Below, one piece after another: positions 3,317 to 44,025 of a stretch of DNA of 64,000 nt; position 1 is the first letter of the stretch; each line of letters begins with the position of its first letter. A model generated the notes under the pieces. That model was given only the letters and a program-made list of their open reading frames with translations, was not told the DNA's origin and ran no database searches. Made by a program: the position numbers and the translations under genes. Origin of the DNA: Escherichia phage ukendt; sequence record NC_052661.1; one strand, given 5' to 3'.

Positions 3317-3819
3317 TATTCTTCCTCCTCTGTTAATGTTTTAAGAACCGCTTTCCCGCCATTCACATATTTGCAGATGTATTCTATCGCACGTAGTGTC
3401 TCTTTGTCAACAAAAATTTGATCAGACGTTGCGAGCGGGTTATTAAGAAGATCACTACAATCACGAACAAGCAGTGCTTTCTTATTAAACAAATTACTTA
3501 AGAACAGTAACTTCGCCTCTTCTTCTGTTATGTGCAGAAGGCTAGGATCGGAGCCAGCTATTCCTATTATACAATCAAACAAGCTTTCTTTACTATCAGA
3601 AAGTTCTTGAAAATGGTTTAAAAGCCAATCTTCTCCTAGACACCAACATTTAAACATTTCCAGCTTATCTCGGAGGGTCATATTCTCTAAAGTAAGAGCA
3701 ATCTCTTTTTCAATATGGTTTACACAAATTTGACGAAATTCGTTAGGTTTTACGAGTCCCGTTTGATAGCACTCATCTATACCGCTTCTTCCGATAGCTA
3801 TTGTTGCTACACCCATCAA
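3316..3819 (-). CDS. hypothetical protein (167 aa)
   Basis: ORF; stop overlaps start of HslV-like gene. Confidence 0.5.
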   Translation of the reverse strand: MMGVATIAIGRSGIDECYQTGLVKPNEFRQICVNHIEKEIALTLENMTLRDKLEMFKCWCLGEDWLLNHFQELSDSKESLFDCIIGIAGSDPSLLHITEEEAKLLFLSNLFNKKALLVRDCSDLLNNPLATSDQIFVDKETLRAIEYICKYVNGGKAVLKTLTEEEE

Positions 3820-3851
3820 TCCTCCTTATAAATGGCTTCCCTGCCACGTTA

Positions 3852-4610
3852 TTAAATAAACACTTCAGTAATCAGTTTAGACAAACGTCCACGTTTATTA
3901 TCGTCCGTTGTCAGTTCAACATATCCAATAAAATCTACAATTGGCTCACGAACACCTTCTTCATTCTCTGGATATAAAAGTTCCAAAATTTGATGCAGAC
4001 CATTGCTACGTTTTTTAATTGCATATGTCTGGCGAACATCGCCTAATACAATAACATGCGTATTAATACCTGCACGTTCAATAAGAAGTTTAAGTGTTTC
4101 TGTTGACATAAGTTGTGCTTCGTCAATAATGACGATTGTATTATCCAGGGTAGCCCCCAACAAATAGTTAGGAATATTCAATTCGATCTTACCTGATCCA
4201 ATATCGTTTTCCAATTTGTTAGCTGTCATGAATTGCTGGAAAATACGTTTTGTAGATTCATAGTGTGCTGCTAGTTTATCTGTTTTATCCCCAGACAAGA
4301 AACCAATCTGGTCATCTCCGACTTCAGTAGGGTTCTTGATAAAAAGTAGTTTACGGAAGTCTCCTGAACGAAGCATCTGCAAAGCTTTCCATAAAGCAAC
4401 AGAGGTTTTACCAGTCCCTGCCGGAGCATTTACAACAGTCAGATCATTCCAAATCATGCTTTGAACAATCTTATTTTGGTCCCCTTCAGGCATAAATTCA
4501 TCTAAACGGTAATCGTCATTACCTACCGCTTTTGCTGCATAACGGCTTTCAATCTTTGCTGAATTAGCCAGTTTCTGCCGTTGTGTTTTAGCTGCGGTTT
4601 TATTTCCCAT
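3852..4610 (-). CDS. phoH: PhoH-like ATPase
   Basis: Walker A NAPAGTGKTSVAL and PhoH-like layout; start moved to internal ATG at 4610 (SD AAGGAG 8 nt upstream); the track's longer ORF to 4661 overlaps the lysozyme gene. Confidence 0.75.
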   Translation of the reverse strand: MGNKTAAKTQRQKLANSAKIESRYAAKAVGNDDYRLDEFMPEGDQNKIVQSMIWNDLTVVNAPAGTGKTSVALWKALQMLRSGDFRKLLFIKNPTEVGDDQIGFLSGDKTDKLAAHYESTKRIFQQFMTANKLENDIGSGKIELNIPNYLLGATLDNTIVIIDEAQLMSTETLKLLIERAGINTHVIVLGDVRQTYAIKKRSNGLHQILELLYPENEEGVREPIVDFIGYVELTTDDNKRGRLSKLITEVFI

Positions 4611-5310: not shown

Positions 5311-5571
5311 TTACTCCGCAATTTGAGCCATGAGATCACGCAGTTCGGTAAAACCGCCTACGTATGTTACCTCCCCGTTCACTTCAGACAGAATTTGTGG
5401 AAATGTGCGTGGAGGAACTCCGGTAAGATCAACAACTGTTTTAGTCATTGATTCTAAATCGTAGTCTTGGTCAAGACTTAAATATTCAAACTGTTTATTG
5501 CGCATGGTTAATAGTTGTTTTGACATTTCGCAAAATTGACAGTTAGGTTTACCAAAAATTACAAATTCCAT
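5311..5571 (-). CDS. glutaredoxin/NrdH-like redoxin
   Basis: N-terminal CxxC active site (GKPNCQFCE), 86 aa, adjacent to RNR genes. Confidence 0.65.
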   Translation of the reverse strand: MEFVIFGKPNCQFCEMSKQLLTMRNKQFEYLSLDQDYDLESMTKTVVDLTGVPPRTFPQILSEVNGEVTYVGGFTELRDLMAQIAE

Positions 5572-6413
5572 TACCTCTCCTTATTAAGTAATACTGCTAA
5601 AGACCGTTCAATACCTTTATTTAAATCTGATTTTGTAAGATAGTGACTGGTTACTAATTGTGACTTCACCGGACGTGCTGCTGGAGCATTATAGGTTGAA
5701 GCTGATACCGCCGATATCTTAACAGGTTCTGGCATCTGTGTCAAGATCTTTTCCGCAAACTCCGCCCAAGAAATAAGATGGCTTCCTGCAAAATGGTAAG
5801 TCTTAACAGACCTTGACCAACCTGTTTTTAATACTTCAAAAATAGCTTCTGCTAAATCTGGAGCATATGTTGGACAAGAGAACTGATCAGCAACAATAAT
5901 AAAATCACGTTGTCCATCATTATAGCGAGACAACATGGTTTTTAGAAAGTTATTTCCAAATTCGCTATATACCGAGGCTGTTCGAATAATATATGCATTT
6001 GGGTTAACTCCTCGCACCATTTTTTCACCAAGTTCTTTCGTATACCCATAATTGTTTATTGGGTTAGGTGTAGTATCTTCAAAAATAGGATGAGAATAAT
6101 TAAAAATATAGTCTGTAGAAATATGCACAAAATCAATTTTAAGTTTACTGCACACTGCTGCAATGTTTGCAGGGCCGTAGGCATTAACAGCCAAAGCAGT
6201 AGCAAAATCATGTTCTGCTTTATCTACAGCCGTATAAGCAGCGCAATTAATAACACCATCTACATAATCTTCAATAATAGCGTTGCGCACGGCTTCAAAA
6301 TTTGTAATATCTACACGTTCTTTAGGATAAATTAAAGATACGTTTGAAGGAGCCACTTTACGTAAAGCTTGTCCCAGTTGTCCATTACCACCCAATACCA
6401 GATATGTTAGCAT
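5571..6413 (-). CDS. rmlD: dTDP-4-dehydrorhamnose reductase (RmlD-like)
   Basis: Rossmann start [17 protein letters not shown], ~280 aa, last gene of rml operon. Confidence 0.75.
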   Translation of the reverse strand: MLTYLVLGGNGQLGQALRKVAPSNVSLIYPKERVDITNFEAVRNAIIEDYVDGVINCAAYTAVDKAEHDFATALAVNAYGPANIAAVCSKLKIDFVHISTDYIFNYSHPIFEDTTPNPINNYGYTKELGEKMVRGVNPNAYIIRTASVYSEFGNNFLKTMLSRYNDGQRDFIIVADQFSCPTYAPDLAEAIFEVLKTGWSRSVKTYHFAGSHLISWAEFAEKILTQMPEPVKISAVSASTYNAPAARPVKSQLVTSHYLTKSDLNKGIERSLAVLLNKER

Positions 6414-6973
6414 ACACCCTCACTACGTAGCTGTTGAAAAGACTTAGCCATTGCATCTTTTGTTGATAAGATAGGTTTAAAATCTTCGTCAAAAATCATA
6501 TCGAAGCCCCAATCAATCCCTATATCAGGATCATCCCAACGTAAACTTTGCTCGCTGGAAGGGTCGTATGGAGTTGTGCATTTGTATTCGAAGATAGCAT
6601 CCATACTCAAGACTATAAAGCCATGTGCCAAACCAGGTGGAAGCCAGAACTGTGTATGGTGTCGTGCACGAAGAACAACACCGTCCCAAGCACCGTAAGT
6701 TGGACTGTCTTTACGTAAGTCTACAGCGAAATCCAATACTTCACCACTTACACAACGAACAAGCTTGCCTTGTGGATTATTTGTTTGGAAGTGCATTCCT
6801 CGCAAAACACCGAAGTTTGATTTAGACATGTTATCTTGAACGAAAGTTTGTTTACCAATAATATCTTCGTATTTTTGTTCATTGTATGTTTCTAAAAAGA
6901 AACCACGATCATCTTTATAAACGTCTGGTTTGATAATTACCGCACCTTCGATTTTTGTTTTTTCTACTTTCAT
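6407..6973 (-). CDS. rmlC: dTDP-4-dehydrorhamnose 3,5-epimerase (RmlC-like cupin)
   Basis: [10 protein letters not shown]...GMHFQ...[11 protein letters not shown]...YGAWDGVVL epimerase signature; start set at internal ATG 6973 (SD GGAGAG; ATGA overlap with rmlA stop). Confidence 0.75.
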
Positions 6974-7848
6974 TTTCTCTCCGCTAATTTGAGTAGGTAT
7001 TGCCCGTACTCTGTTTTCTTCAGTGAGTTTCCATGGTACACCAAAGTCTCTAAAGAAATCCACCCTTTTTTGAAAGCAATTTCTTCCAGGCACGCAATCT
7101 TCAATCCTTGGCAGTTCTCAATAGTCTGCACGAATTGACCAGCTTCCATCAGACTGGCGTGTGTTCCTGTGTCAAGCCAAGTAAATCCTCGTCCGAGAAC
7201 TTCTACTTGTAACTTCCTGTCTTCGAGGTAGCTGCGATTGATATCTGTGATCTCCAGTTCTCCACGCGAGGAAGGGGTTACTTCTAGTGCGCGTTGAACA
7301 ACAGAATTATCATAGAAATACAAACCTGTGACAGCATAATCTGATTTAGGATTTTCAGGTTTCTCTTCAATAGAAATAGCTTGACGATTACTCCCAAATT
7401 CAACCACGCCGAATCGTTCAGGATCTTTCACCAAATACCCAAAGATACAAGCTCCGCCCCAAACATCTACCATCTCACTGGCATTAATCAGTAGTTTACC
7501 AAAGCTTTGTCCGAAGAATAGGTTGTCACCTAAAATAAGAGCAACAGAGTCTTCTCCGATAAAATCTTTACCGATGATGAAAGCCTCCGCAAGACCTCGT
7601 GGCTCGGATTGGATTGCGTAAGTGAGTTTTATCCCAAACATAGACCCATCTCCGAGAAGATACTTAAAGTCTTCCTGATCGCCTGGTGTGGTGATGATTA
7701 AGATATCTTTAATGTCAGCCAACATCAATACCGATAAAGGGTAGTAGATCATGGGTTTGTCATACACAGGGAGCAATTGCTTGCTCACACTGCGTGTTAC
7801 CGGATGAAGGCGGGTTCCACTTCCTCCCGCCAAAATAATACCTTTCAT
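6970..7848 (-). CDS. rmlA: glucose-1-phosphate thymidylyltransferase (RmlA)
   Basis: [18 protein letters not shown] nucleotidyltransferase signature, 292 aa. Confidence 0.85.
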
Positions 7849-7856
7849 AACCCTCC

Positions 7857-8849
7857 TTAAATCTTCTCACTCCACCATTGAGGGTTGTTTAAGTACCATT
7901 CAATCGTTGAGTAGAGATCTTGTTCAAATGTAGAGTTTGCACTCCAACCCAGTTCAGACTCTATTTTAGAAGGATTGATTTCATAACGCAAGTCATGTCC
8001 TTTACGATCTTCAACAAAAGTTATCAAGTTGGAAGAAGGGTAGGTTCCTGCTTCTGGATGTACAGCATCCATGTAGTCACAAACCATATAGATGATCTCC
8101 ATATTGGTTTTGGGATTACGTGTTCCAATATTATACGTTTGACCTGGTTCTCCACCTGTTGCCACTTGAAGAATAGCTCGCGCATGATCCTCCACAAAAA
8201 GCCAGTCTCGCACCTGATCGCCTTTACCATACACTGGAATCTTTTTATTCGTCAAGATACTTGTGATGATTTTTGGGATCAGCTTTTCTGGATGTTGATA
8301 AGGTCCAAAGTTATTGGAGCAGTTGGTTATCACAACAGGTAAGTCGTAGGTACGGTGCCAAGCTTTCACAAGATGGTCAGATGCTGCCTTAGACGCACTG
8401 TACGGGCTTGAAGGGGCATAAGCTGTCTCTTCGGTAAAAGGAACGCCAGAGTCTGCCATATCGCCGTACACTTCGTCTGTGGAGACGTGTACGAACATCT
8501 TCAGTTTATTCTTTGGGAGGAGCCTTGCAGCTTCCAATAAATTGTATGTACCAATAATATTGGAGTCGATGAAAGCTCGTGGATTCTTGATAGAATTATC
8601 CACATGACTCTCTGCCGCTAAGTGAATGATGAAATCGGGATTGCACTCTACTACTAAACTTTTGACCTGGGCTTCGTTTGCCAAATCTGTTATACTTAGT
8701 TTAGCGTGAGTGATATCGCCTACATTCTTAATGTCTGCTGCATAGCTCATCTTATCAACGACAAAAACTTCGTTATTGGGATCTTGACAAAGAGAGCGCA
8801 CCACGGCGCTCCCAATAAAACCAAGACCACCTGTTACCAGATAGCGCAT
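7857..8849 (-). CDS. rmlB: dTDP-glucose 4,6-dehydratase (RmlB)
   Basis: [21 protein letters not shown]-binding motif, SDR YxxxK (YSASKAAS), 330 aa. Confidence 0.85.
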
Positions 8850-9481: not shown

Positions 9482-9690
9482 TATTCCTCCTTAATTATTT
9501 CAAACTTGGCAACACCATTTACAATAATATGACCACAAGACATAACTCCTAACCAAGGATCGCCGTTTTTCTTCAGGCGTTTACCGAATACATCACAAAA
9601 ACCATTCTTCATTTCGGAGGCTTCATAAGAAGCCCCTTTGTCAAAAACGTCTTTGAATGTGTCGATTATACCAACACATCTCAGAATCAT
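9481..9690 (-). CDS. hypothetical protein (69 aa)
   Basis: ORF directly downstream of nrdB. Confidence 0.45.
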   Translation of the reverse strand: MILRCVGIIDTFKDVFDKGASYEASEMKNGFCDVFGKRLKKNGDPWLGVMSCGHIIVNGVAKFEIIKEE

Positions 9691-10775
9691 TAGAAGTCAA
9701 GCTCCTCATCATCAGAAAGATCTTTGTTAGCTGAATTCAACTTGTAATTAGTTAACTGAATCTCTTGGGCTGCTGACTGAATCAAATCAGGATTCAACCA
9801 TTTTTCCATCCAAGCTAAAGGACTATGTTTAGGTGCTTTAAACTTGGCTTTCATTTTCAATCGACGATAAATAGGAGCAGCATTGAAATAAACCCACTGT
9901 TTAGACAATTCGGCGTTAAGACCTACAATAAAACGACCTTCACTAAACAGGTAGTCACACCACTGTTCCTCTTGTTCAACAACAGTGTCGAGGATCAAAG
10001 TCAACTCTTCAATATTGTCTTCGTAAATTTTACGCCAAATTGGGTCATGCATCAATGCATCAATTACAGCATAATCCATCTTAACATGCAAGATTTCATC
10101 TAGCATAATTTTCTGGATCAGTTTACAAGCCCCAACAAACAGTTGTTGTTCTGCCATAGCAAAAGTAGCAGAGAAGGAAGATATGAACTGAATACCTTCT
10201 AATCCAATCAGGGCTACCATCCCTTTAAGAATCAGCAATCGAAGTTCATCGTTAGCTTCAATCAATCCTAGAGCATACTTATGACCAGCTTCTTCCAACT
10301 GACCCATGATATCAGCAATGATACCCATACGATTGAAAATTTTATCATTAATCATAATCTGATTGATGACTTCAATTGGATCTGGAGTACATTGACGGAT
10401 TATTTCAGAATATGTTAACGCATGGAGAACTTCCATTTCACTCTGCTTCATCATCATAGCACAGGCTTCATTGTTACTCAAGAATGGAGAGAACAAAGTG
10501 ATGATTGATTTTGCAAGAGAATCATTTTCCCATTGGAACGATAAGTTTTTAATCATAACATCATAGTTGTTTTTAGAACAAGCTACGAAATCTTTACGTG
10601 TCTGATCCAGATTGACTTCATTCTCATCCCAATCTTGTGCTTTTTGAAGTTTGTAGAGTTTATGCATTTCTGGATAAGTTACGTTAACAGAATCAAAAAT
10701 CCCTAATTGTTCTCCTAAAAATACTGGATATTTTCCTGTTTTGTAAACTTCATTGTGTAAATTAATTGCTGCCAT
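9690..10775 (-). CDS. nrdB: ribonucleotide reductase class Ia small subunit
   Basis: 361 aa, immediately downstream of nrdA; typical size and helical composition. Confidence 0.85.
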   Translation of the reverse strand: MAAINLHNEVYKTGKYPVFLGEQLGIFDSVNVTYPEMHKLYKLQKAQDWDENEVNLDQTRKDFVACSKNNYDVMIKNLSFQWENDSLAKSIITLFSPFLSNNEACAMMMKQSEMEVLHALTYSEIIRQCTPDPIEVINQIMINDKIFNRMGIIADIMGQLEEAGHKYALGLIEANDELRLLILKGMVALIGLEGIQFISSFSATFAMAEQQLFVGACKLIQKIMLDEILHVKMDYAVIDALMHDPIWRKIYEDNIEELTLILDTVVEQEEQWCDYLFSEGRFIVGLNAELSKQWVYFNAAPIYRRLKMKAKFKAPKHSPLAWMEKWLNPDLIQSAAQEIQLTNYKLNSANKDLSDDEELDF

Positions 10776-10792
10776 TTAAAATTCTCCTCAAT

Positions 10793-10812
10793 AAAAAGGG
10801 GCCGAAGCCCCT
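10793..10812 (-). terminator. intrinsic terminator/attenuator between nrdA and nrdB (hairpin copy 2)
   Basis: minus-strand RNA AGGGGC-UUCG-GCCCCU followed by UUUUUA, then SD and nrdB ATG. Confidence 0.5.
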
Positions 10813-10819
10813 AGTTTCA

Positions 10820-13060
10820 TCACATCTTGCAAGCTTCACAACCACCATCAGAATCTTCTTGTGCTAAAGAATCTGCTGATTTTGTTCTACTATTAAGGTA
10901 ATACAATGACTTACCACCCAGTCTAGCAAAGTTCAAAATAAATTTCATCTCTTCTTTAACTGATAAACGTCCCCCTACCAATTTAGAATAATCTAACCAA
11001 GAATCACAAGAAATTCCTTGGTCCGTAAACTTGGTAAAGATACCATACATTTCTGCAAGATCTTTAGCCGGAGTATCCCAGGCGGACTGGTAAAACATTT
11101 TCAGTTTTTCATAGTCTGGAACAATAAATAATACACTACCTTTCTGACTTTGTTTATACATAATAGTATCACGAACAGGATACAGAGAGTTAGTAGTATT
11201 GCTTACCAAACTGCTGGACTCATTAGGTGCAATAGCAGCCAAGACACTGTTACGGATACCACCTTGTTCAATGATTTCAGCACGTAAGCCTTCCCAGTCC
11301 ATTTTAAGATCAAAATTACCGATACTGTCTACTGTTTTAGCATAAGTGTCAATTGGTAGCCAACCTTGAGGCCATTTGGTTTTATCGATCCATTCCGCAT
11401 TGCCTTTTTCCTTAGCCAGACGCAGAGAGGCTTTTGCCAACCAAAAGTAATGACGTTCTGCAAGTTCATGCATTAATTTTTTAGCATAAGCATCTGAATA
11501 ATTTACAAAATTACTTGCCAAGTAATGCGCTAAGTTTGTAATGCCTACACCAATAGATCTACGTGCTTTAGCAGTTATTTCGTTATGTTTAAATGGATAA
11601 TCCATTGTTTCAATAACGTTGTCAATTGTCAATACAGTGTAGTATGCAACATCCTCATATTCTTCAGGTAAGACACGACCAGCAACAATAGAAGATAAGA
11701 AGCATAAAGCCAATTCTTGATCTTCTGTATTCTCACCAGTAAAGAGATCCGGCATACTGTGGAAAGCTTTAGTTGGTAAGAAGATCTCTTGACACAGGTT
11801 TGATTGATACACCGTATCCAGGAAAGGTGTATGGTTGTTAACGTTGTCAGCAAAGAACATGTAAATACGTCCTGTTTCTGCACGTTGAACAATAATCTCT
11901 GTCAGAAGATCACGAGCCTTAACAAATTTTTTCTTAATGCGACGACGGCTTACTTTGTCATAAACTGCATCAAACTCTTCTTCACTTTTATACAAAGCTT
12001 CATAAAGTTCAGGAGCATCATCACAACTAACTAACATCCAGTCTTCGTTTTTTGCTGCTCGACGCAAGAACGAACGGTTAACAACAATAGAATAATCTAG
12101 TTTGTCTACTCGTTTATCTATAGGTGTTGTTGGATTCTTCAGTCGAATCAGATCGTCGAAGTCTGGTTCAAGTATGGTAAAGGTAACTGTAGCACTACCT
12201 CCACGGCTTGCTTGCTTCGAAGCTCCAACACTATCTTCCATCCATTTCAGATACGGAAGAAGACCACCATGAATAATACGATTATTCTTAACACCTTGAC
12301 CTGTGGCACGAGTTTGAAGATTAACACCAATACCTGCGTTATTCAACGTATACTCATGAGCTAAGTAATTAGCAATGGCTAAAGATTCTGCCGTATCGTC
12401 TGCACGGAATAAACAACAAGACGCACTTCCTTTGATTGGAGTTCGTAGAGTTGTCAGATACGGCGATGGCAGATTAATCTTAAGATCGCTAACATAAGTA
12501 TAAAGTTTTTTAATATCTTCTATACGGCGTTCTTTTGGTTGGATCTCCATAACCTTCATTGCGATACCAATGAAAAGAAACTGTGGAGACTCATGCACCA
12601 CATCGTTTACTGCATCTCGAATAAGATATTTATCTACCATCTGACGTAAAACAGAATAACCATAAGTTAGATTTTTATTATGCTTTACAATCTTACCGAT
12701 TTCTTTGATCTCTTCATCAGTATAATCCATTTTAGCCCAATGTCCACGTTCTACCATATCATGATAAAAGGTATTCAGTGAAGGGATACTGTGGTATCCC
12801 CCATGAGCCTGTTTGTAAATCATACCCAGAAGAAGCCTTCCTGCCATATCACTGTAAGCTTGTGTTTTCTTGTCAATACACGCTGCAATCATTGCTTTAT
12901 GCAGATCACGTGTAGACACACCGTCATAACACCGCTTCACAGCTTCTAATTCAATTTCAGACCAGTTTAGTTTACCTGCTGCAAATTCAGACCACTTGCG
13001 AAGTTTTTCTGGATTAAACTCCTCTGTCTTACCGTTAGATTTAGTTACAAAACGAATCAA
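10820..13060 (-). CDS. nrdA: ribonucleotide reductase class Ia large subunit
   Basis: 746 aa; N-terminal ATP-cone-like region; active-site SNLCQEI (NxCxE); C-terminal Cys pair CEACKM. Confidence 0.9.
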   Translation of the reverse strand: MIRFVTKSNGKTEEFNPEKLRKWSEFAAGKLNWSEIELEAVKRCYDGVSTRDLHKAMIAACIDKKTQAYSDMAGRLLLGMIYKQAHGGYHSIPSLNTFYHDMVERGHWAKMDYTDEEIKEIGKIVKHNKNLTYGYSVLRQMVDKYLIRDAVNDVVHESPQFLFIGIAMKVMEIQPKERRIEDIKKLYTYVSDLKINLPSPYLTTLRTPIKGSASCCLFRADDTAESLAIANYLAHEYTLNNAGIGVNLQTRATGQGVKNNRIIHGGLLPYLKWMEDSVGASKQASRGGSATVTFTILEPDFDDLIRLKNPTTPIDKRVDKLDYSIVVNRSFLRRAAKNEDWMLVSCDDAPELYEALYKSEEEFDAVYDKVSRRRIKKKFVKARDLLTEIIVQRAETGRIYMFFADNVNNHTPFLDTVYQSNLCQEIFLPTKAFHSMPDLFTGENTEDQELALCFLSSIVAGRVLPEEYEDVAYYTVLTIDNVIETMDYPFKHNEITAKARRSIGVGITNLAHYLASNFVNYSDAYAKKLMHELAERHYFWLAKASLRLAKEKGNAEWIDKTKWPQGWLPIDTYAKTVDSIGNFDLKMDWEGLRAEIIEQGGIRNSVLAAIAPNESSSLVSNTTNSLYPVRDTIMYKQSQKGSVLFIVPDYEKLKMFYQSAWDTPAKDLAEMYGIFTKFTDQGISCDSWLDYSKLVGGRLSVKEEMKFILNFARLGGKSLYYLNSRTKSADSLAQEDSDGGCEACKM

Positions 13061-13076: not shown

Positions 13077-13331
13077 TTAATGCATATTCAAAACATCTAC
13101 ATCATAACCGAACTTCATTTCATTAAAAAGTCCATTAGCATATAGAAAACCTTCAAAATGAGTTATGTCATCAAACCCTTTTGCTTTTGCTCGACGGTCT
13201 GCTTCTTGTCTTTTAGGAGATAAACGTTTTGAAGTGTCTAGAATTACAGTTACATTACAACCAACAGTTTCATCAAAATAGACTTCGATTTCACAGCCTT
13301 CATATTTATTATCAGTCATTGTCCCTCTCAT
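13077..13331 (-). CDS. hypothetical protein (84 aa)
   Basis: ORF with start/stop overlap. Confidence 0.45.
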   Translation of the reverse strand: MRGTMTDNKYEGCEIEVYFDETVGCNVTVILDTSKRLSPKRQEADRRAKAKGFDDITHFEGFLYANGLFNEMKFGYDVDVLNMH

Positions 13332-13738
13332 TGATTAGTATCATCTGCTTTCGCAGGATCATAAGAGTTACCGAAATCATCCATCTTAATATGTGACGCA
13401 CCCCAACCTGTAAATTCTTCATCACCAAAATGAAAAATATCATTTTCTTGATAGATTCGTTTAAAACCACAATTAGGTGAAACAGGGAAAGTGAAAAGCG
13501 TTGTATTTGCAAACACTACTCGCTTATCGTTATTGCTTCGGATATTCACATTACGCTCAACAGAATAGTGTGAATCTTCAGCCATACCCAGCATTACAAG
13601 CGACGCTCTAATAACAGCATTTTGTTTCTCGTGTGGGATATTACCATTGTGTTTATTTGATTCTAGTTTCCAGATAGGGGTAGACATTACAGTAGACATG
13701 CTTACGGTAGCCCAAGTTGTAGTATTTACTAATGACAT
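13328..13738 (-). CDS. hypothetical protein (~136 aa)
   Basis: start set at internal ATG (SD AAGGAG); the track's GTG start at 13771 lies inside an upstream hairpin GGGAGGAGGTGAGTCCTCCC. Confidence 0.45.
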   Translation of the reverse strand: MSLVNTTTWATVSMSTVMSTPIWKLESNKHNGNIPHEKQNAVIRASLVMLGMAEDSHYSVERNVNIRSNNDKRVVFANTTLFTFPVSPNCGFKRIYQENDIFHFGDEEFTGWGASHIKMDDFGNSYDPAKADDTNQ

Positions 13739-13836
13739 ATTTTCTCCTTCATTTTGAATGGGAGGACTCACCTCCTCCCAGTATTGTGCTATATTATACT
13801 AAAACTAATACTAAAGTCAATAACTATTTAAACAGA

Positions 13837-14835
13837 TCACCATTTAGTATGATTTGTTAAAAGTTGACGATGTTGAATCCAGCCTTTGAAATTGCCAGAC
13901 CAAAACTTACCATTACGATCTACATGGGTAATACCTGGTTCCCAAGAGTTAAAATCCCAAGGAGCATTGATAAACAAATCTTCAAAACAGTTCTCTCCAT
14001 ATTGTTCGCATGTTTCTTGAATTGGAGTGGCTTGATGTTCAAACGGAGAAGCATGAACCTTGCGCCCAGTCAGCAAGCGACCATAGATATCTAAAGCTTT
14101 ATCTTTAGTTGCATTTAAACGACGATAGCTAACCTGTGCACAACATGAAGCTGAAATAGCTTTGGCTTCTTCCAAAGTAAGCACAACAACTTCTCCAGAT
14201 TCATCTTGAACGTAGTATCCACCAAAAACAAAATGATCGTCACCTTCTGTGCCAATATTATCGTAGAAATGGTCTACATAAGGTGTGTGCCATTGCCCTG
14301 GTTTCAGAACTTCTGGTGTAGATCCTTCATACTCTTTGTGCATCTCTTTAGCCAAAGCTTCGATAGTAGGATCGGCTTCTTTGTCATCACGTAGCCACCA
14401 GAAATTTTCATATTCTGTTGCTGTCAGAACTGTTTTAATTCGTTGGAAAGGTTCCAGAAGACGGTTTGCAACTTGTTTGTGGTACCCTGCCAAAGAGAAT
14501 TCTTCTGCAAAACGTGCTGCACTAAGCGCGGCAAGATCCCACCACTCTTGAGCAGTATAACCTGCATCAATAAGAGCGTCATGATCAACACCTTTATCCT
14601 GCATACCAGGTTGGTTAGCCCCAAAACGATAAGGACGAGCAGGTTGATTTCGCACCATTTCAATCAGTGTTTTAACAGGTATAGCACGGCTAGAAGCAGC
14701 ATTACGACTGAACAGGCGGTGAGTCATCAATTCTGAATGAATAATACGTGGATATTCTAGTTCAAAAGTTACAATCTCTTTTCCGTCTTCAGTGATGGAA
14801 TGCGCAATAATACTAGCCGAAATCTGTTTTGTCAT
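13837..14835 (-). CDS. ThyX-like flavin-dependent thymidylate synthase homologue (extended)
   Basis: MTHRLFSRNAASSR matches the ThyX (R)HRxxSxxxxSxR motif; 332 aa is ~80-100 aa longer than typical ThyX. Confidence 0.55.
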   Translation of the reverse strand: MTKQISASIIAHSITEDGKEIVTFELEYPRIIHSELMTHRLFSRNAASSRAIPVKTLIEMVRNQPARPYRFGANQPGMQDKGVDHDALIDAGYTAQEWWDLAALSAARFAEEFSLAGYHKQVANRLLEPFQRIKTVLTATEYENFWWLRDDKEADPTIEALAKEMHKEYEGSTPEVLKPGQWHTPYVDHFYDNIGTEGDDHFVFGGYYVQDESGEVVVLTLEEAKAISASCCAQVSYRRLNATKDKALDIYGRLLTGRKVHASPFEHQATPIQETCEQYGENCFEDLFINAPWDFNSWEPGITHVDRNGKFWSGNFKGWIQHRQLLTNHTKW

Positions 14836-14844
14836 TTTTTCTCC

Positions 14845-15453
14845 TTAGTTTTTAAAATTGTTCAAAGTGTTAAAAACATCCAAACATGTTAGCCACTGAT
14901 CTTCTAAACCTGTGATCACAACATTTGGTTTTTTCTTTAGTTCTTCTAGATGGTTATCTTTATAAGGCGTATTAAAATATATTTTAACCACTTCATCTGG
15001 AAAATATAGTAGGTTATCAGCCCTGTCATCTATTGCTATATCACAAGGCAATAAGTATTTTTCTTTCGTAGCAAAAAAGCCGTTACCAGATCCTTTGCTA
15101 AAATCAATCGTATCTAACGTTCTTAAAACATGCTTATGTTTAGAACTTAAGTGACCACCTTTTGTCACACTTGCGATCAAAAGATTGCTACCTTTCCTTG
15201 AAACATACTTTAAGAAATCTGGCATACCTGGAACAAAACCCATTGTATCATAGAGATGAGGATTATCCAGAAATCCGTAAGGATCTATATTGAACTCCTC
15301 CCTGAAACCAGGAAAGTAGTTGGTAAGATCATAGTCTGCATTTTTTGTGAATGTGTCTATCTTAACACCAAGTCCACTAATCTTATTCAACCATTCTAAC
15401 CAAGCAATATCTAATGGAGCCACAACTAAATCCCAATCACATACTATCTGCAT
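14845..15453 (-). CDS. HAD-superfamily phosphatase, probable 5'(3')-deoxyribonucleotidase
   Basis: N-terminal DxD nucleophile (VCDWDLV) and later IAIDDRADN (motif IV-like). Confidence 0.45.
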   Translation of the reverse strand: MQIVCDWDLVVAPLDIAWLEWLNKISGLGVKIDTFTKNADYDLTNYFPGFREEFNIDPYGFLDNPHLYDTMGFVPGMPDFLKYVSRKGSNLLIASVTKGGHLSSKHKHVLRTLDTIDFSKGSGNGFFATKEKYLLPCDIAIDDRADNLLYFPDEVVKIYFNTPYKDNHLEELKKKPNVVITGLEDQWLTCLDVFNTLNNFKN

Positions 15454-15489: not shown

Positions 15490-16065
15490 CTAACTTTCAA
15501 TTTCCTGCAATAGGATTTTGACTATTTGTTTACGGCGTTTTGCTACTGTGCTTTCAGGTTCTATTTTACGCTTCTTCAGCCACGCTTTATCTTTCTTAGC
15601 TCTACACAAAGCTATCGCTTCTTTTTCAGCTTTTGCTTCTTCAAAAGATATGTCTTGCTTGTCTGCATAAGCAAGAATAGAGTTGCACAATTTACAAACC
15701 ATTCGCAAATCTTCTTCTTTCACATAGATCAAACGGAAAACAAAAAGGGGAATATCCTCAAAACATTGAAGTTGTTTTGCTGCGTGAATATGATCCACTT
15801 GGAAGTCTTTCATTCCTCCTTTATGTCCACATATTTCGCACTCACAATTCCAAACTTGTTTTGGTTTTCCAGTTTTCTTGTCTATCATTACATTGCCGTC
15901 TTTATCTACACGATCAACTTTAAAACGCCTTGCATTGATAACCTTAATTTTATTAGGGTGTCTCATCCATGCTTTTCTAAAACATCCCCTAAGATAAGTA
16001 TAAAATTCAGCTTGTGTTTTCCAGGGTGTTCCTTCACCCCACATTATTTTTGGTTCACCTGCCAA
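15490..16065 (-). CDS. HNH endonuclease (free-standing, homing-type)
   Basis: CECEICGHK...VDHIHA...CKLCN (Cys/His HNH pattern); TTG start. Confidence 0.55.
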   Translation of the reverse strand: MAGEPKIMWGEGTPWKTQAEFYTYLRGCFRKAWMRHPNKIKVINARRFKVDRVDKDGNVMIDKKTGKPKQVWNCECEICGHKGGMKDFQVDHIHAAKQLQCFEDIPLFVFRLIYVKEEDLRMVCKLCNSILAYADKQDISFEEAKAEKEAIALCRAKKDKAWLKKRKIEPESTVAKRRKQIVKILLQEIES

Positions 16066-20244: not shown

Positions 20245-20970
20245 TTACTTGTTAATAATACCTGCAATATTAGGTTTGACAAAGGTCGATGGTTTCATGA
20301 TCTTACCTTTATCATCAAAGAACACATACACTTTCTGTTTTTCATTATAAACAGCATGAACACCAGTGTATGCCCCTTCTGGACGATTGGCATTTCGTTC
20401 TTCAATTGCAGCGCATTCTTGTGCAATGGCTGAATCGATATCCGAAGTTTTCCAAGTTTTCAGCAACTGTTGTTTAGTTGGATACTTGGAATCATTACTT
20501 TTCAATACCTCTTTAATAACTTTCTTTTCTGGATATTTTGAACGGATTAGAGTGTCACGAGACATACGCATAATACCAGCAGCCATTAGTGCCATTTGAA
20601 CTGGCTCTGTAAATGTTTGTTCCAAAGCATCAAAATCAGTATACACAGTTGGAGTAAAAACATCGCCTACAGCATAGTCCAAGAAATTCATCGTATGTTC
20701 TTCACCAAAGAACATGTAAGTCAGATAACTGGATACTACAAAAATATCTGCTGCTGCGTCCAAGAGTTCTACATGATCGTTTACTTTCGCGGCTGTTTCA
20801 TACTCTTTAAGTTCTTCACGAACGAATCCGATTTGGGACATAAATAGCTCTTGAGTGAATTCAGGTTGTTCACCACCTCGTGCTTTGGCATTCCAATCAA
20901 TCACGTGCTTTGCTGCATTTTTGAAAAATTCAGTATCGAATTTAATATCTTTAAAAAAATTCTCGATCAT
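20245..20970 (-). CDS. MazG-like nucleoside triphosphate pyrophosphohydrolase domain protein
   Basis: REELKEYETAAK...VELLDAAADIFVV resembles the MazG ExxE...ExxD motif. Confidence 0.45.
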   Translation of the reverse strand: MIENFFKDIKFDTEFFKNAAKHVIDWNAKARGGEQPEFTQELFMSQIGFVREELKEYETAAKVNDHVELLDAAADIFVVSSYLTYMFFGEEHTMNFLDYAVGDVFTPTVYTDFDALEQTFTEPVQMALMAAGIMRMSRDTLIRSKYPEKKVIKEVLKSNDSKYPTKQQLLKTWKTSDIDSAIAQECAAIEERNANRPEGAYTGVHAVYNEKQKVYVFFDDKGKIMKPSTFVKPNIAGIINK

Positions 20971-41986: not shown

Positions 41987-42617
41987 TATTTACCAACAAA
42001 TAGAAGCATACGAAAATGCCATCTACTTAAATATAGGTGGCTTCCTTCAAGAATTAGTGGGGTTGCCAGTCTATGTTATGGATAAGCCATTCATTAAACC
42101 GGATACTCCTTACCTAGCACTACGTATTATCACTTCCAGCGATTCTGGAGGTTGGTCTTACCGAAGCTCTATTCAAAATGATATGTATTCCTACGAGATG
42201 GATAATACCTACGAGATTGAACTTGTAGCCTATCGTGGAAGACCTACTACTTTGATGAGCTATGTTCTGGCTGCTCTCCGTGGTGCAGAGGAATTAAAAT
42301 ACAAACATCTCTATTCTAAAGGTCTTGGTTTTTTAGGAGCCTCCAATATAGCTCAAGCCAATACAATTGTAGACGGAGATAAGACTGAATTAAGAGCGCG
42401 TATGGTTATGACGTTCAACACTCGTATGAGTATTGAAGATATTGCTACTACACCAATAGAAGCAATCAACATGCACATCCGTTCATTCAGAGATAGTTAC
42501 AATGATCCTATCCCTTTAGATTTAATTCTAAACAGGGTTTATGCAATTACTTTGGTTCCAGGCGAATACTCGTCAGTTAATCAAAATGGATCATTATTTA
42601 ACAACCCTACCGAATAA
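41958..42617 (+). CDS. putative tail completion/terminator protein
   Basis: position just upstream of sheath; start may be TTG 41979 (SD AAGGAGG) rather than ATG 41958. Confidence 0.4.
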   Translation: MEQKEETLANIYQQIEAYENAIYLNIGGFLQELVGLPVYVMDKPFIKPDTPYLALRIITSSDSGGWSYRSSIQNDMYSYEMDNTYEIELVAYRGRPTTLMSYVLAALRGAEELKYKHLYSKGLGFLGASNIAQANTIVDGDKTELRARMVMTFNTRMSIEDIATTPIEAINMHIRSFRDSYNDPIPLDLILNRVYAITLVPGEYSSVNQNGSLFNNPTE

Positions 42618-42651
42618 ACTCATTGGAATTAAGTTTCTAACAGGAGCATAA

Positions 42652-44025
42652 ATGGCAACTTTTCGTGAAAAGGTAGCAACCGTAACTTTACTGTATGGTG
42701 CTACATCAATTCGTGAAACCCAGTTCGATATTCCCCTGATCCTTACAGGTCAGAACGTAACTGGCGAAGCGATTCAATATTACTCTTCTTCCGATGCACT
42801 TTTGGAAGCAGGTTATGGATTAAATGATCCAGCGTATATTATGGCAGTCAAACTGTTTAACGGTTTGTTCCCACCAGATCAAGTTATGGTTGGTAAGCGT
42901 GAAGTTACAAACTTTACTCTAACTCCAATCGTAGAAGATAGTACAACTTACACAATTACCATCAAAAATGGTACCAAGAAAAAAGAATTTAAATTCATTG
43001 CTGATGACACTGCAACTGCACAAGAGATTGTAGTTGGTCTGACTGAAATGATCAATGCAGATCTTGTTTATGGCCCACTGTTTACAGTAGCTAACAACGG
43101 CGCTGCAATGACTTTCACTCCAGTAGAAGGTAAGTTTGGTTCTATTGACAGCACAGGTTTCACTCAAGAAACTGTCTATGCTAATGCTATTACGGAAGAT
43201 ATCGCTGCTCTGCATGATATTGATAGTAGCTGGTTCTGGACCCTTTCAGATTCCCATGAAACAGAAGATGTTCTAGCTTTGGCTGCATGGGTAGAAGAGA
43301 ATGATAAAGTTTACTTCTTCTCTAGCTCTGAACCTGGAATTAAAACGAAAGCAGAAGATAACGTTCTGGAACGACTGAATGACCTCGGTTATAATAACAC
43401 TTGCTTTGCTTTGTGGATGACTGATGCAGATTCTGTATTCCCAGAAGCAGCAGTTGTTGGTGCAATCTGTTCTCGTCAACCTGGTTTAACTACTCTTCAC
43501 GGTAAAACACTGGTAGGTGTAGAGATCGAGAAACTGGATCAGACTTCGGAAAACAATATTGTTCAACAGAACGGTAACATCTATCGTAAAGAGCATGGAA
43601 CTCTGTTCTATCGTGATGGATTGATGGTTAGCGGTTTCTTTGTTGACTATGTTGTTCATGCTTTGTGGTTTAAAGCTCGCACAGAAGAATCACTGTTTAC
43701 ACTGTTTAAACAACAGTCTATGCTGGGTGGTGGTGTTCGTGCTACTTCAAACGGTCTAGCTTTGATTCGACAAGCTGTTCTGGCTAACCCGATCCAAGTA
43801 GGTATCCTCAACGGTTCCATCGCTAATGAAGTTGTTACTTCTGAAGAGACTGGTTTGCGTGTCGATCTGAAACCTATTGTTTATATTCCTTCTCGTGCCG
43901 ATATGACCGATGCGCAAATCAATGCTCGTCTGGTTGATGGGATGAAGATTGAATATGTTTACGCTGGCTTCTTCCATTACGTTAAAGTTCAGGTCAACGT
44001 CCTGACTAACCGTACTGCAAACTAA
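42652..44025 (+). CDS. tail sheath protein
   Basis: 457 aa directly upstream of 159-aa tube gene; sheath-tube-chaperone-tape-measure order. Confidence 0.7.
   Translation: MATFREKVATVTLLYGATSIRETQFDIPLILTGQNVTGEAIQYYSSSDALLEAGYGLNDPAYIMAVKLFNGLFPPDQVMVGKREVTNFTLTPIVEDSTTYTITIKNGTKKKEFKFIADDTATAQEIVVGLTEMINADLVYGPLFTVANNGAAMTFTPVEGKFGSIDSTGFTQETVYANAITEDIAALHDIDSSWFWTLSDSHETEDVLALAAWVEENDKVYFFSSSEPGIKTKAEDNVLERLNDLGYNNTCFALWMTDADSVFPEAAVVGAICSRQPGLTTLHGKTLVGVEIEKLDQTSENNIVQQNGNIYRKEHGTLFYRDGLMVSGFFVDYVVHALWFKARTEESLFTLFKQQSMLGGGVRATSNGLALIRQAVLANPIQVGILNGSIANEVVTSEETGLRVDLKPIVYIPSRADMTDAQINARLVDGMKIEYVYAGFFHYVKVQVNVLTNRTAN

What the first reader, a model, noticed from the sequence alone, without database searches (positions are those of the whole stretch)
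13837..14835. ThyX-like enzyme with a long extension in the dNTP-synthesis block
The HRxxSxxxxSxR motif (THRLFSRNAASSR) places this ORF in the flavin-dependent thymidylate synthase fold, but the motif sits unusually near the N-terminus and the protein is ~332 aa, with ~150 extra C-terminal residues. It lies next to nrdA/nrdB, a HAD nucleotidase and MazG, so it may be a thymidylate synthase or a ThyX-derived enzyme making a modified pyrimidine.
Basis: partly seen in the sequence, partly recalled or inferred. Interest (0 to 1): 0.45.

Follow-up and report, generated by a model that had tools for sequence, protein, structure and literature searches.

The report
Rearranged phage ThyX thymidylate synthase
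This phage gene most likely encodes a flavin-dependent thymidylate synthase (ThyX) whose "extra" C-terminal half is largely the enzyme's normal N-terminal cofactor-binding piece moved to the other end; the gene family is common and already annotated, but this rearrangement and two missing "essential" residues seem not to have been described.

Summary
A 332-aa ORF lies at 13837..14835 on the minus strand, has THRLFSRNAASSR at aa 38-50, and matches Pfam Thy1 only over aa 22-174. It is 100% identical to phAPEC8 "putative thymidylate synthase". The family is large: more than 1000 phage records and about 4100 clusters at 50% identity, including rV5-like phages, ICP1, PaP1/KPP10-like phages, N4 gp30 and phiCbK-like phages.

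Most residues equivalent to the dUMP/FAD-contacting ones are kept. Arg78 is Thr38 and the "strictly conserved" lid Tyr91 is an invariant Ala51. Family-specific invariant motifs (GxWHxPY, QxR) appear instead.

Gene context and the literature favour ordinary dTMP synthesis. The gene sits with nrdAB and a deoxynucleotidase-like (NT5C) gene, the phage has no thyA or DHFR, thymidine rises on PaP1 infection, and relatives are restriction-sensitive. No member has been assayed. I rate it a new variant of a known kind, of moderate interest.

The parts
13837..14835 (-). Whole ORF, 332 aa plus stop: rearranged ThyX-family protein, identical to phAPEC8 gp156 'putative thymidylate synthase'
   Evidence: 100% identity; Pfam Thy1; PHROG 85, E 1e-107; AF2 pLDDT 91.2, pTM 0.90
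14776..14835 (-). aa 1-20: N-terminal beta-strand (E6-14) that forms a hairpin with the first core strand. The canonical helices that normally follow this strand are absent here
   Evidence: Secondary structure of the model; its correspondence to canonical beta1/beta2 could not be resolved by HMM comparison
14311..14775 (-). aa 21-175: ThyX core, equivalent to T. maritima residues ~60-198
14686..14724 (-). aa 38-50: ThyX motif THRLFSRNAASSR. H39=H79, R40=R80, S48=S88, R50=R90; the first Arg (R78) is Thr38, and the next residue, Ala51, replaces Tyr91
   Evidence: hhalign residue map; family-wide counts H39 149/150, S48 148/150, R50 150/150, A51 150/150, T38 141/150
14278..14298 (-). aa 180-186: family-specific invariant motif G-x-W-H-x-P-Y with no canonical counterpart; candidate replacement for the missing lid or contact residues (inferred)
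   Evidence: H183 149/150, P185 148/150, W182 137/150, Y186 Y114/F31; lies beyond the end of every alignment to canonical ThyX
14176..14310 (-). aa 176-220: linker carrying the GxWHxPY motif, followed by a beta-strand insertion of variable length (E188-193, E202-210, E216-219)
   Evidence: Model secondary structure; length varies between subfamilies and the insertion is largely absent in DSS3phi2
14023..14175 (-). aa 221-271: relocated N-terminal ThyX module (two helices plus HASPFEH). S228=S22, S236=S30, H261=H53, S263=T55, E266=E58, H267=H59
   Evidence: Pfam score rises from 33.3 to 43.7-44.6 bits and coverage extends to profile 14-190 when spliced in front of the core; hhalign 68.5 to 100.3 against controls of 68-73; alone vs the canonical N-terminus P 1.3e-4; inteins inserted right after H261 in three clusters; encoded as a separate ORF in Flavobacterium phage FPSV-D7
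13936..14022 (-). aa 272-300: variable, lower-confidence insertion
   Evidence: pLDDT 67-77; length varies or the segment is absent in other subfamilies
13840..13935 (-). aa 301-332: conserved C-terminal tail (GITHxD...SGNxxGWIQxRQL) with invariant Q321 and R323; origin unresolved
   Evidence: Q321 135/137 and R323 137/137 of ungapped sequences, N315 133; pLDDT 92-97; only a non-significant resemblance to the canonical beta5-helix (P 0.0045)
9690..13060 (-). Context: nrdB (9690-10775) and nrdA (10820-13060), class Ia ribonucleotide reductase, immediately downstream
   Evidence: the same linkage is seen in rV5-like, ICP1, Nankokuvirus, PaP1 and phiCbK-like relatives
14845..15453 (-). Context: NT5C-like (HAD) 5'-deoxynucleotidase homologue immediately upstream
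   Evidence: Pfam PF06941, 25.8 bits; conserved next to the rV5-like homologue

Best explanation
The ORF encodes a member of a large phage-specific clade of the flavin-dependent thymidylate synthase (ThyX/Thy1) superfamily with a rearranged chain order. In canonical ThyX, the two helices and the 'H-x-(S/T)-P-F-E-H' loop that help hold FAD and folate come before the core. Here that module (aa ~221-268) comes after the core (aa 21-175). This is why the ThyX motif sits at residue 38 and why the protein appears to have a C-terminal 'extension'.

The most likely function is the ordinary ThyX reaction: FAD-mediated reductive methylation of dUMP to dTMP with methylene-tetrahydrofolate and NAD(P)H. 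This would supply thymidylate for phage DNA (and dTTP for the phage's dTDP-rhamnose pathway) without needing dihydrofolate reductase.

Shown here: the ThyX fold, the homology and relocation of the module, the conservation pattern, the gene context and the family size.

Inferred: FAD binding, tetramer formation and dTMP as the product. Also inferred is that the family-specific invariant residues (GxWHxPY at 180-186, Q321/R323) replace the missing Arg78 and lid Tyr91.
For: Fold:
- Pfam Thy1 scores 33.3 bits against a cutoff of 24.8.
- The AF2 model has pLDDT 91.2 and pTM 0.90.

Relocated module:
- Splicing aa 176-270 or 215-270 in front of aa 21-175 raises the Pfam score to 43.7/44.6 bits and extends coverage to profile positions 14-190.
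- With hhalign against a canonical ThyX alignment, the core alone scores 68.5 and the C-module plus core scores 93-100 (E 5e-15).
- The controls stay low: reversed 72.9, C-tail 68.1, native order 71.2, and ten column shuffles 68.9-70.5.
- The C-module alone hits the canonical N-terminus at P 1.3e-4.

Residue map to T. maritima and family-wide conservation:
- Conserved: H39=H79, R40=R80, S48=S88, R50=R90, R125=R147, N144=N169, R149=R174, S236=S30, H261=H53, S263=T55, E266=E58. All are 131-150 of 150.
- R30 is at the position I counted as M. tuberculosis Arg87, one of the dUMP ligands named in PMC6514825. That numbering is from memory of the sequence.

Functional importance of the C-module:
- Inteins sit directly after H261 in three clusters. 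Others sit inside the ThyX motif and next to the R149 region.
- In Flavobacterium phage FPSV-D7 a GIY-YIG homing-endonuclease gene splits the gene into a core ORF and a 129-aa C-module ORF.

Context:
- The gene is next to nrdAB and an NT5C-like gene here.
- Relatives place it next to RNR, dCMP/dCTP deaminase or dNMP kinase.
- No thyA, DHFR or second ThyX is found in the whole phAPEC8 genome.

Physiology:
- PaP1 gp110 is 49% identical over its full length.
- It is highly expressed, and thymidine rises on infection (PMC5377924).
Against: - No member of this clade has been assayed, complemented or solved in the literature I could search.
- Two residues treated as hallmarks of ThyX are not at their aligned positions. 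Arg78 is Thr38 (141/150). Tyr91, called 'strictly conserved' and critical in PMC11940539, is Ala51 (150/150). The positions aligned to T. maritima Asn163/Arg165, which I recall as FAD contacts, are Thr138/Thr140.
- The NCBIfam thyX equivalog model scores 31.1 against a cutoff of 87.9.
- PDB sequence searches find nothing, even with a profile.
- I could not see model coordinates, so it is not shown that the relocated helices occupy the canonical place in 3D.
- The PaP1 thymidine evidence is correlative.
Confidence: 0.75

Rival explanations
1. A ThyX-derived enzyme that makes a non-canonical pyrimidine nucleotide. For example, with the lid tyrosine gone, water might reach the exocyclic-methylene intermediate and give 5-hydroxymethyl-dUMP. 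This would feed a DNA modification pathway.
For: Tyr91, the lid that shields uracil C5 and flavin N5 (PMC6514825; PMC11940539), is an invariant Ala in all 150 representatives. The phage also carries a dTDP-sugar pathway and four glycosyltransferases. No biochemical data exist for the clade.
Against: - All known dUMP hydroxymethylases are ThyA-family enzymes (PMC8989533).
- Vequintavirinae and relatives, which carry 53%-identical homologues, are 'exceptionally susceptible' to restriction-modification systems (PMC8594841).
- Thymidine, not an analogue, is reported to rise on PaP1 infection.
- I identified no 5-hmdU-processing genes, such as a 5-hmdU DNA kinase, among the eight immediate neighbours scanned.
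- The family occurs in many unrelated phage groups for which I know of no report of modified thymine (from memory, not checked).
Confidence: 0.07
2. One reading: a truncated ThyX core fused to an unrelated accessory C-terminal domain of ~150 aa, for example a regulatory or partner-binding domain.
Against: - The C-terminal segment aligns specifically to the canonical N-terminal module, with the same functional residues.
- It adds 25-32 hhalign score units only when placed in the canonical order and orientation.
- A core lacking S30/H53/T55/E58 equivalents would lack part of the FAD/folate site.
- Sequential aligners cannot report a non-sequential match, so their partial coverage is expected.
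Confidence: 0.04
3. A ThyX-fold methylase with a different substrate (UMP as in PolB, or dCMP), or a catalytically dead homologue with a regulatory role.
Against: - The arginines that read uracil O4/N3 (R50, R149) are invariant, which argues against cytosine.
- Linkage to RNR, dCMP/dCTP deaminase and dNMP kinase points to deoxynucleotide supply.
- Near-invariant active-site residues and inteins at those sites argue against an inactive protein.
Confidence: 0.07

Closest known systems
Canonical flavin-dependent thymidylate synthase ThyX (T. maritima TM0449, PDB 1O26; M. tuberculosis Rv2754c, 2AF6; PBCV-1 A674R, 4FZB)
   Different: The chain order differs: the N-terminal helical module follows the core. 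Arg78 is Thr, Tyr91 is Ala, and Asn163/Arg165 are Thr/Thr. There are extra invariant motifs (GxWHxPY, SGN...QxR) and ~80 further residues of insertions. Sequence similarity is too low for a PDB sequence hit or the NCBIfam equivalog cutoff.
N4 gp30, rV5 gp106, ICP1 gp193, PaP1 gp110, phiCbK-like 'putative thymidylate synthase'
   Same: These belong to the same family with the same full-length architecture, at 32-55% identity over 95-100% of the protein. They are already annotated as thymidylate synthase or thyX in GenBank and in genome papers.
   Different: Nothing essential differs. They vary only in the length of the two insertions (aa 188-220 and 272-300). None has been characterised biochemically. 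PaP1 gp110 has only expression and metabolomic correlation.
PolB, the UMP/dUMP C5-methylase of polyoxin biosynthesis (PDB 4P5A)
   Different: PolB keeps the canonical chain order and belongs to an antibiotic gene cluster. The phage protein sits in a dNTP-supply block.
ThyA-family pyrimidine hydroxymethylases (T4 gp42, SPO1 gp29)
   Same: They are phage enzymes in nucleotide-supply blocks that put a one-carbon unit on C5.
   Different: The fold is unrelated. No Thymidylat_synt Pfam match and no ThyA-like sequence is found in the genome.

Membership tests
ThyX / Thy1 (flavin-dependent thymidylate synthase, PF02511) | ThyX alpha/beta fold | tested here: met
ThyX / Thy1 | ThyX motif, conserved part: His79, Arg80, Ser88, Arg90 | tested here: met
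   H39, R40, S48 and R50 align to them. They are conserved in 131-150 of 150 family representatives.
ThyX / Thy1 | First Arg of RHR (Arg78) and the lid/acid Tyr91 that follows S-x-R | tested here: not met
   The aligned positions are Thr38 (141/150) and Ala51 (150/150). Tyr91 is described as strictly conserved and critical in PMC11940539. All 11 canonical sequences I aligned have R/K and Y at these positions.
ThyX / Thy1 | dUMP-binding arginines from the second half of the core (Arg147, Arg174) and Asn169 | tested here: met
   R125 (149/150), R149 (150/150) and N144 (149/150).
ThyX / Thy1 | N-terminal helical module with Ser30, His53, Thr55 and Glu58, located before the core | tested here: inconclusive
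   The module and its residues are present (S236, H261, S263, E266). They lie after the core, not before it. Whether it occupies the canonical 3D position could not be checked because no coordinates were available.
ThyX / Thy1 | NCBIfam TIGR02170 thyX equivalog score at or above the curated cutoff | tested here: not met
   31.1 bits against a cutoff of 87.9, covering aa 22-176 only.
ThyX / Thy1 | Bound FAD, homotetramer, and dUMP + CH2H4folate + NAD(P)H giving dTMP | not testable with these tools
   This needs protein biochemistry or thyA complementation. No published assay for this clade was found.
ThyX / Thy1 | Genomic pattern: replaces ThyA and needs no DHFR | tested here: met
   The whole phAPEC8 annotation has this single thymidylate synthase and no thyA or folA.
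ThyA-family thymidylate synthase / pyrimidine hydroxymethylase | Thymidylat_synt fold and catalytic Cys | tested here: not met
   No Pfam match other than Thy1. Structural matches are ThyX only.

The most novel reading that the evidence does not exclude
This very large phage clade (about 4100 clusters at 50% identity) may be a mechanistically distinct class of flavin-dependent C5-pyrimidine transferase. It would have a rebuilt active site lacking the lid/acid Tyr91 and Arg78, with new invariant GxWHxPY and QxR elements from the rearranged C-terminal half. Its chemistry or product could then differ from canonical ThyX, for example hydration of the exocyclic methylene to give 5-hydroxymethyl-dUMP, or use of a different reductant.
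Probability: 0.1. Interest if true: 0.75.

Novelty: new variant of a known kind. Interest (0 to 1): 0.4.

Why it matters
ThyX is studied as an antimicrobial target and as an unusual flavin chemistry. Current mechanistic models give Tyr91 and the RHR arginines central roles. This clade is natural, abundant and strongly conserved, lacks those residues at their usual positions, and carries the cofactor module in a different place in the chain. It therefore shows which parts of the ThyX active site can be replaced, and the split version in a Flavobacterium phage suggests how the fold can be assembled from separate pieces.

There is also a practical consequence for annotation. Pfam covers only half the protein, the NCBIfam equivalog model rejects it, and many members are labelled 'hypothetical protein'. 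Surveys of viral nucleotide-metabolism genes therefore undercount it. For this phage, the result is simply that it very probably makes its own thymidylate.

Tried and rejected
- PDB sequence searches with the single protein and with a 34-sequence profile gave no hits. Only structure comparison and Pfam link the protein to ThyX.
- The afdb50 fold library was not available. BFVD added only a few family members.
- I looked for a conserved small partner ORF next to the gene across six phage clades. None was found; only the NT5C-like gene is shared with rV5-like phages.
- I asked whether the N-terminal strand (aa 6-14) or the strands at aa 188-219 correspond to canonical beta1/beta2. Adding either did not extend the HMM alignment, so this stays unresolved.
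- I asked whether the C-terminal tail (WIQHRQL) is a relic of a second RHR motif from a tandem duplication. There is no alignment support, and H322 is not conserved (Y64/H33/F16). Only a non-significant resemblance to the canonical beta5-helix appeared (P 0.0045).
- Literature searches for a permuted ThyX, or for experiments on N4 gp30, ICP1 gp193 or phAPEC8, found annotation-level statements only.
- I could not inspect model coordinates. The 3D placement of the relocated module and the identity of the residues replacing Arg78 and Tyr91 remain inference.

Full report
**1. What is at the coordinates**

A 332-codon ORF plus stop occupies 13837..14835 on the minus strand. The plus-strand reading of the interval is full of stops. 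The peptide THRLFSRNAASSR is at residues 38-50.

The window is a phAPEC8-like Escherichia myovirus (genus Phapecoctavirus), 98-99% identical in DNA over the 12 kb around the gene. The protein is 100% identical to phAPEC8 gp156, annotated 'putative thymidylate synthase'.

- nrdB at 9690-10775 and nrdA at 10820-13060.
- An NT5C-type HAD nucleotidase homologue at 14845-15453.
- A MazG-like pyrophosphohydrolase at 20245-20970.

**2. Family assignment**

Sequence evidence:
- Pfam Thy1 matches above its gathering score (33.3 against 24.8 bits), but only aa 22-174 to profile positions 59-190 of 191.
- The NCBIfam thyX equivalog model scores 31.1 against a cutoff of 87.9.
- PHROG 85 'thymidylate synthase' matches the full length at E 1e-107.
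- PDB sequence searches find nothing, even with a profile.

Structural evidence:
- An AlphaFold2 model built on a 66-sequence alignment reaching down to 34% identity is confident (pLDDT 91.2, pTM 0.90).
- Foldseek against the PDB returns only ThyX entries, with ~150 aligned columns.

The ThyX fold is therefore established. Every sequential method covers only the N-terminal half.

**3. What the 'extension' is**

An alignment of seven distant homologues showed conserved C-terminal motifs, S..CA..SY(R) at aa 228-238 and VHASPxEHQA at aa 260-269. These resemble the N-terminal part of canonical ThyX. I checked my recollection of the T. maritima sequence against PDB 1KQ4/1O26; it matched at 219 of 220 residues.

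Test 1, Pfam:
- Placing aa 176-270 or aa 215-270 in front of aa 21-175 raised the Thy1 score from 33.3 to 43.7 and 44.6 bits.
- Coverage extended from profile positions 59-190 to 14-190.

Test 2, hhalign of the family alignment against T. maritima plus ten canonical phage ThyX sequences:

| Construct | Score |
|---|---|
| Core alone (aa 21-175) | 68.5 |
| C-module (aa 221-268) + core | 100.3 (E 5e-15, template 29-220) |
| Same columns reversed | 72.9 |
| C-tail (aa 272-332) + core | 68.1 |
| Native order | 71.2 |
| Ten column shuffles | 68.9-70.5 |

The C-terminal half alone aligns to the canonical N-terminus at P 1.3e-4.

The residue map for the module is S228=S22, S236=S30, H261=H53, S263=T55, E266=E58 and H267=H59. 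I recall S30, H53, T55 and E58 as flavin or folate contacts in T. maritima ThyX; I did not verify this against a paper. So the module that canonical ThyX carries before its core is encoded here after the core.

The model's secondary structure agrees. Two helices and a short helix (H221-237, H244-255, H263-267) are preceded by strands, as in the canonical N-terminus. At the true N-terminus a strand (E6-14) runs straight into the first core strand (E20-29) with no helices between them.

I could not obtain coordinates. That the module sits in the canonical 3D position is inferred, not shown.

**4. Independent signs that the C-module is functional and modular**

Among representatives of the family, 14 proteins of 524-654 aa carry inteins with HNH or LAGLIDADG domains. 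The insertion sites I mapped on 13 of them are:
- after H33
- after R40
- after F42
- after S48, inside the ThyX motif
- after about aa 152, next to the R149 region
- directly after H261, the His53 equivalent, in three separate clusters

From general knowledge, inteins characteristically sit in active-site motifs.

In Flavobacterium phage FPSV-D7, a GIY-YIG/NUMOD1 homing-endonuclease gene splits the gene. The result is a 239-aa core ORF ending just after the GEWHIPF motif, and a 129-aa ORF that aligns to aa 227-329 of the window protein at E 2e-8. If both ORFs are expressed, the C-module would be a separate polypeptide there. Phage ECP26 is likewise annotated as two ORFs of 245 and 97 aa.

**5. 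Active-site inventory**

From the hhalign map, with counts over 150 representatives of 50%-identity clusters.

Conserved:
- H39=H79 (149/150)
- R40=R80 (131/150)
- S43=S83
- N45=N85
- S48=S88 (148/150)
- R50=R90 (150/150)
- R125=R147 (149/150)
- N144=N169 (149/150)
- R149=R174 (150/150)
- R30 (131/150). By my count it sits at the position of M. tuberculosis Arg87, one of the dUMP ligands listed in PMC6514825. The numbering is from my memory of that sequence.

Not conserved at the aligned position:
- Arg78 is Thr38 (141/150).
- Glu86 is Ala46.
- Tyr91 is Ala51 (150/150).
- Asn163 and Arg165 are Thr138 and Thr140.

Tyr91 is described as a strictly conserved, catalytically critical residue and as the lid over uracil C5 and flavin N5 (PMC11940539; PMC6514825). 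All eleven canonical sequences I aligned have R/K at position 78 and Y at position 91.

The family has its own invariant elements with no canonical counterpart:
- G-x-W-H-x-P-Y at 180-186 (H183 149/150; Y186 is Y in 114 and F in 31).
- N-Q-x-G-M-Q at 74-79 (G77 and M78 150/150).
- A C-terminal S-G-N...W-I-Q-x-R (R323 in 137 of 137 ungapped sequences).

I infer that some of these replace the missing lid and phosphate contacts. This is not tested. Because Y186 is often Phe, it could act as a hydrophobic lid but not as a general acid.

**6. Distribution**

- tblastn finds homologues in 1033 phage records, 989 of them covering at least 80% of the protein.
- The groups are Phapecoctavirus, Vequintavirus (rV5-like), ICP1, Pakpunavirus and Nankokuvirus of Pseudomonas, N4-like Schitoviridae (gp30), roseophages, phiCbK-like Caulobacter phages and others.
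- A profile search of 1.84 billion cluster representatives gives 5945 hits at E <= 1e-3 and 4101 at E <= 1e-30. Nearly all listed hits are full length.
- Many divergent members have no precomputed Pfam hit or are labelled 'hypothetical protein'.
- Canonical-order ThyX occurs in a separate set of 2682 phage records.

**7. Function**

Gene context across clades consistently points to deoxynucleotide supply:
- RNR genes adjacent in rV5-like phages, ICP1, Nankokuvirus, PaP1 and phiCbK-like phages.
- dCTP or dCMP deaminase a few genes upstream in N4-like phages.
- dNMP kinase adjacent in CcrMagneto.

The complete phAPEC8 annotation contains no other thymidylate synthase and no DHFR or dCMP deaminase. 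Absence of DHFR fits ThyX chemistry, which yields tetrahydrofolate rather than dihydrofolate (established knowledge).

The only physiological data I found concern PaP1. Its gp110 is 49% identical over the full length. It is highly expressed, and thymidine rises significantly on infection (PMC5377924). This is correlative.

Against a modified-base role:
- The arginines that read uracil are invariant.
- All known dUMP hydroxymethylases are ThyA-type (PMC8989533).

I therefore put about 0.75 on an ordinary dUMP-to-dTMP synthase with rearranged topology. I put about 0.07 each on a modified-nucleotide product and on a different substrate or a non-catalytic role. I put about 0.04 on an unrelated accessory domain.

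**8. Comparison with what is known, and novelty**

As a gene, this is already known. It has been annotated as a putative thymidylate synthase or thyX since the N4-like and rV5-like genome papers.

I could not find the following in the searchable literature or in the curated models (Pfam, NCBIfam and PHROG behaviour):
- that the clade has a non-canonical chain order
- that the relocated module explains the 'extension'
- that the clade invariably lacks Tyr91 and Arg78 at their usual positions

I file it as a new variant of a known kind. It works like ThyX and passes the fold and most active-site tests. It fails the full-motif test and the equivalog threshold.

Interest is moderate at 0.4. It would be notable to ThyX enzymologists and useful for annotation, but it is unlikely to change the view that the phage simply makes its own dTMP.

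**9. Limits**

- No coordinates were available, so 3D placement and the replacement residues are inferred.
- The origin of the rearrangement is unresolved. Possibilities are duplication followed by deletion, or fission and fusion helped by homing endonucleases.
- There are no biochemical data for any member.

Noticed in passing
window 5571-8849 (minus strand): A complete dTDP-L-rhamnose pathway sits directly downstream of the nrdAB-thyX block: RmlD 5571-6413, RmlC 6407-7093, RmlA 6970-7848, RmlB 7857-8849, with Pfam E-values of 1e-66 to 1e-79. phAPEC8 also has four glycosyltransferase genes beside its primase and DNA polymerase. The target of this sugar pathway is unknown; it could be host glycans, virion proteins or DNA. 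It draws on dTTP, so it adds to the demand for thymidylate.
   Followed up: partly
family members P0291, P0296, P0299, P0311, P0317, P0324, P0326, P0340, P0349, P0358, P0404, P0416, P0420: Inteins with HNH or LAGLIDADG endonuclease domains interrupt the ThyX-like protein at six different sites: after H33, R40, F42, S48, about aa 152 and H261 (window numbering). All sites lie in or beside the most conserved motifs.
   Followed up: yes
L003 (Flavobacterium phage FPSV-D7) 2998-4931: A GIY-YIG/NUMOD1 homing-endonuclease gene (3731-4555) splits the homologous gene into a 239-aa core ORF and a 129-aa C-module ORF. Escherichia phage ECP26 is also annotated as two pieces of 245 and 97 aa. If both pieces are expressed, the enzyme would be assembled from two chains in these phages.
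   Followed up: partly
window 15490-16065 (minus strand): A free-standing HNH endonuclease gene (PHROG 1985, E 3e-65) lies inside the nucleotide-metabolism and replication block, two genes upstream of the ThyX-like gene. It is probably a homing endonuclease.
   Followed up: no
window 10775-10820, compared with phAPEC8 record 42316-42723: In the window nrdB and nrdA are 44 bp apart. phAPEC8 and phage nieznany carry an extra segment somewhere in this 12-kb block, because their megablast matches come in two pieces and span a few hundred more bases. In phAPEC8 an additional annotated ORF (gp160) lies between nrdB and nrdA. This is an indel polymorphism among close relatives.
   Followed up: no
window 13840-13935 (aa 301-332 of the ORF): The conserved C-terminal tail FWSGNFKGWIQHRQLL weakly resembles the canonical ThyX strand-helix FFWTVNARSLMNFLNLR (hhalign P 0.0045, not significant). 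If the resemblance is real, N315 and K317 could replace Asn163 and Arg165, which the core has lost (Thr138 and Thr140). This is a lead only.
   Followed up: partly
window 13077-13771 (minus strand): Two small ORFs of 147 and 84 aa lie between the ThyX-like gene and nrdA. They belong to PHROGs of unknown function (15711, 15807). They are not conserved next to the homologous gene in other phage clades, apart from a weak 84-aa match (E 0.002) to an rV5-like phage.
   Followed up: partly
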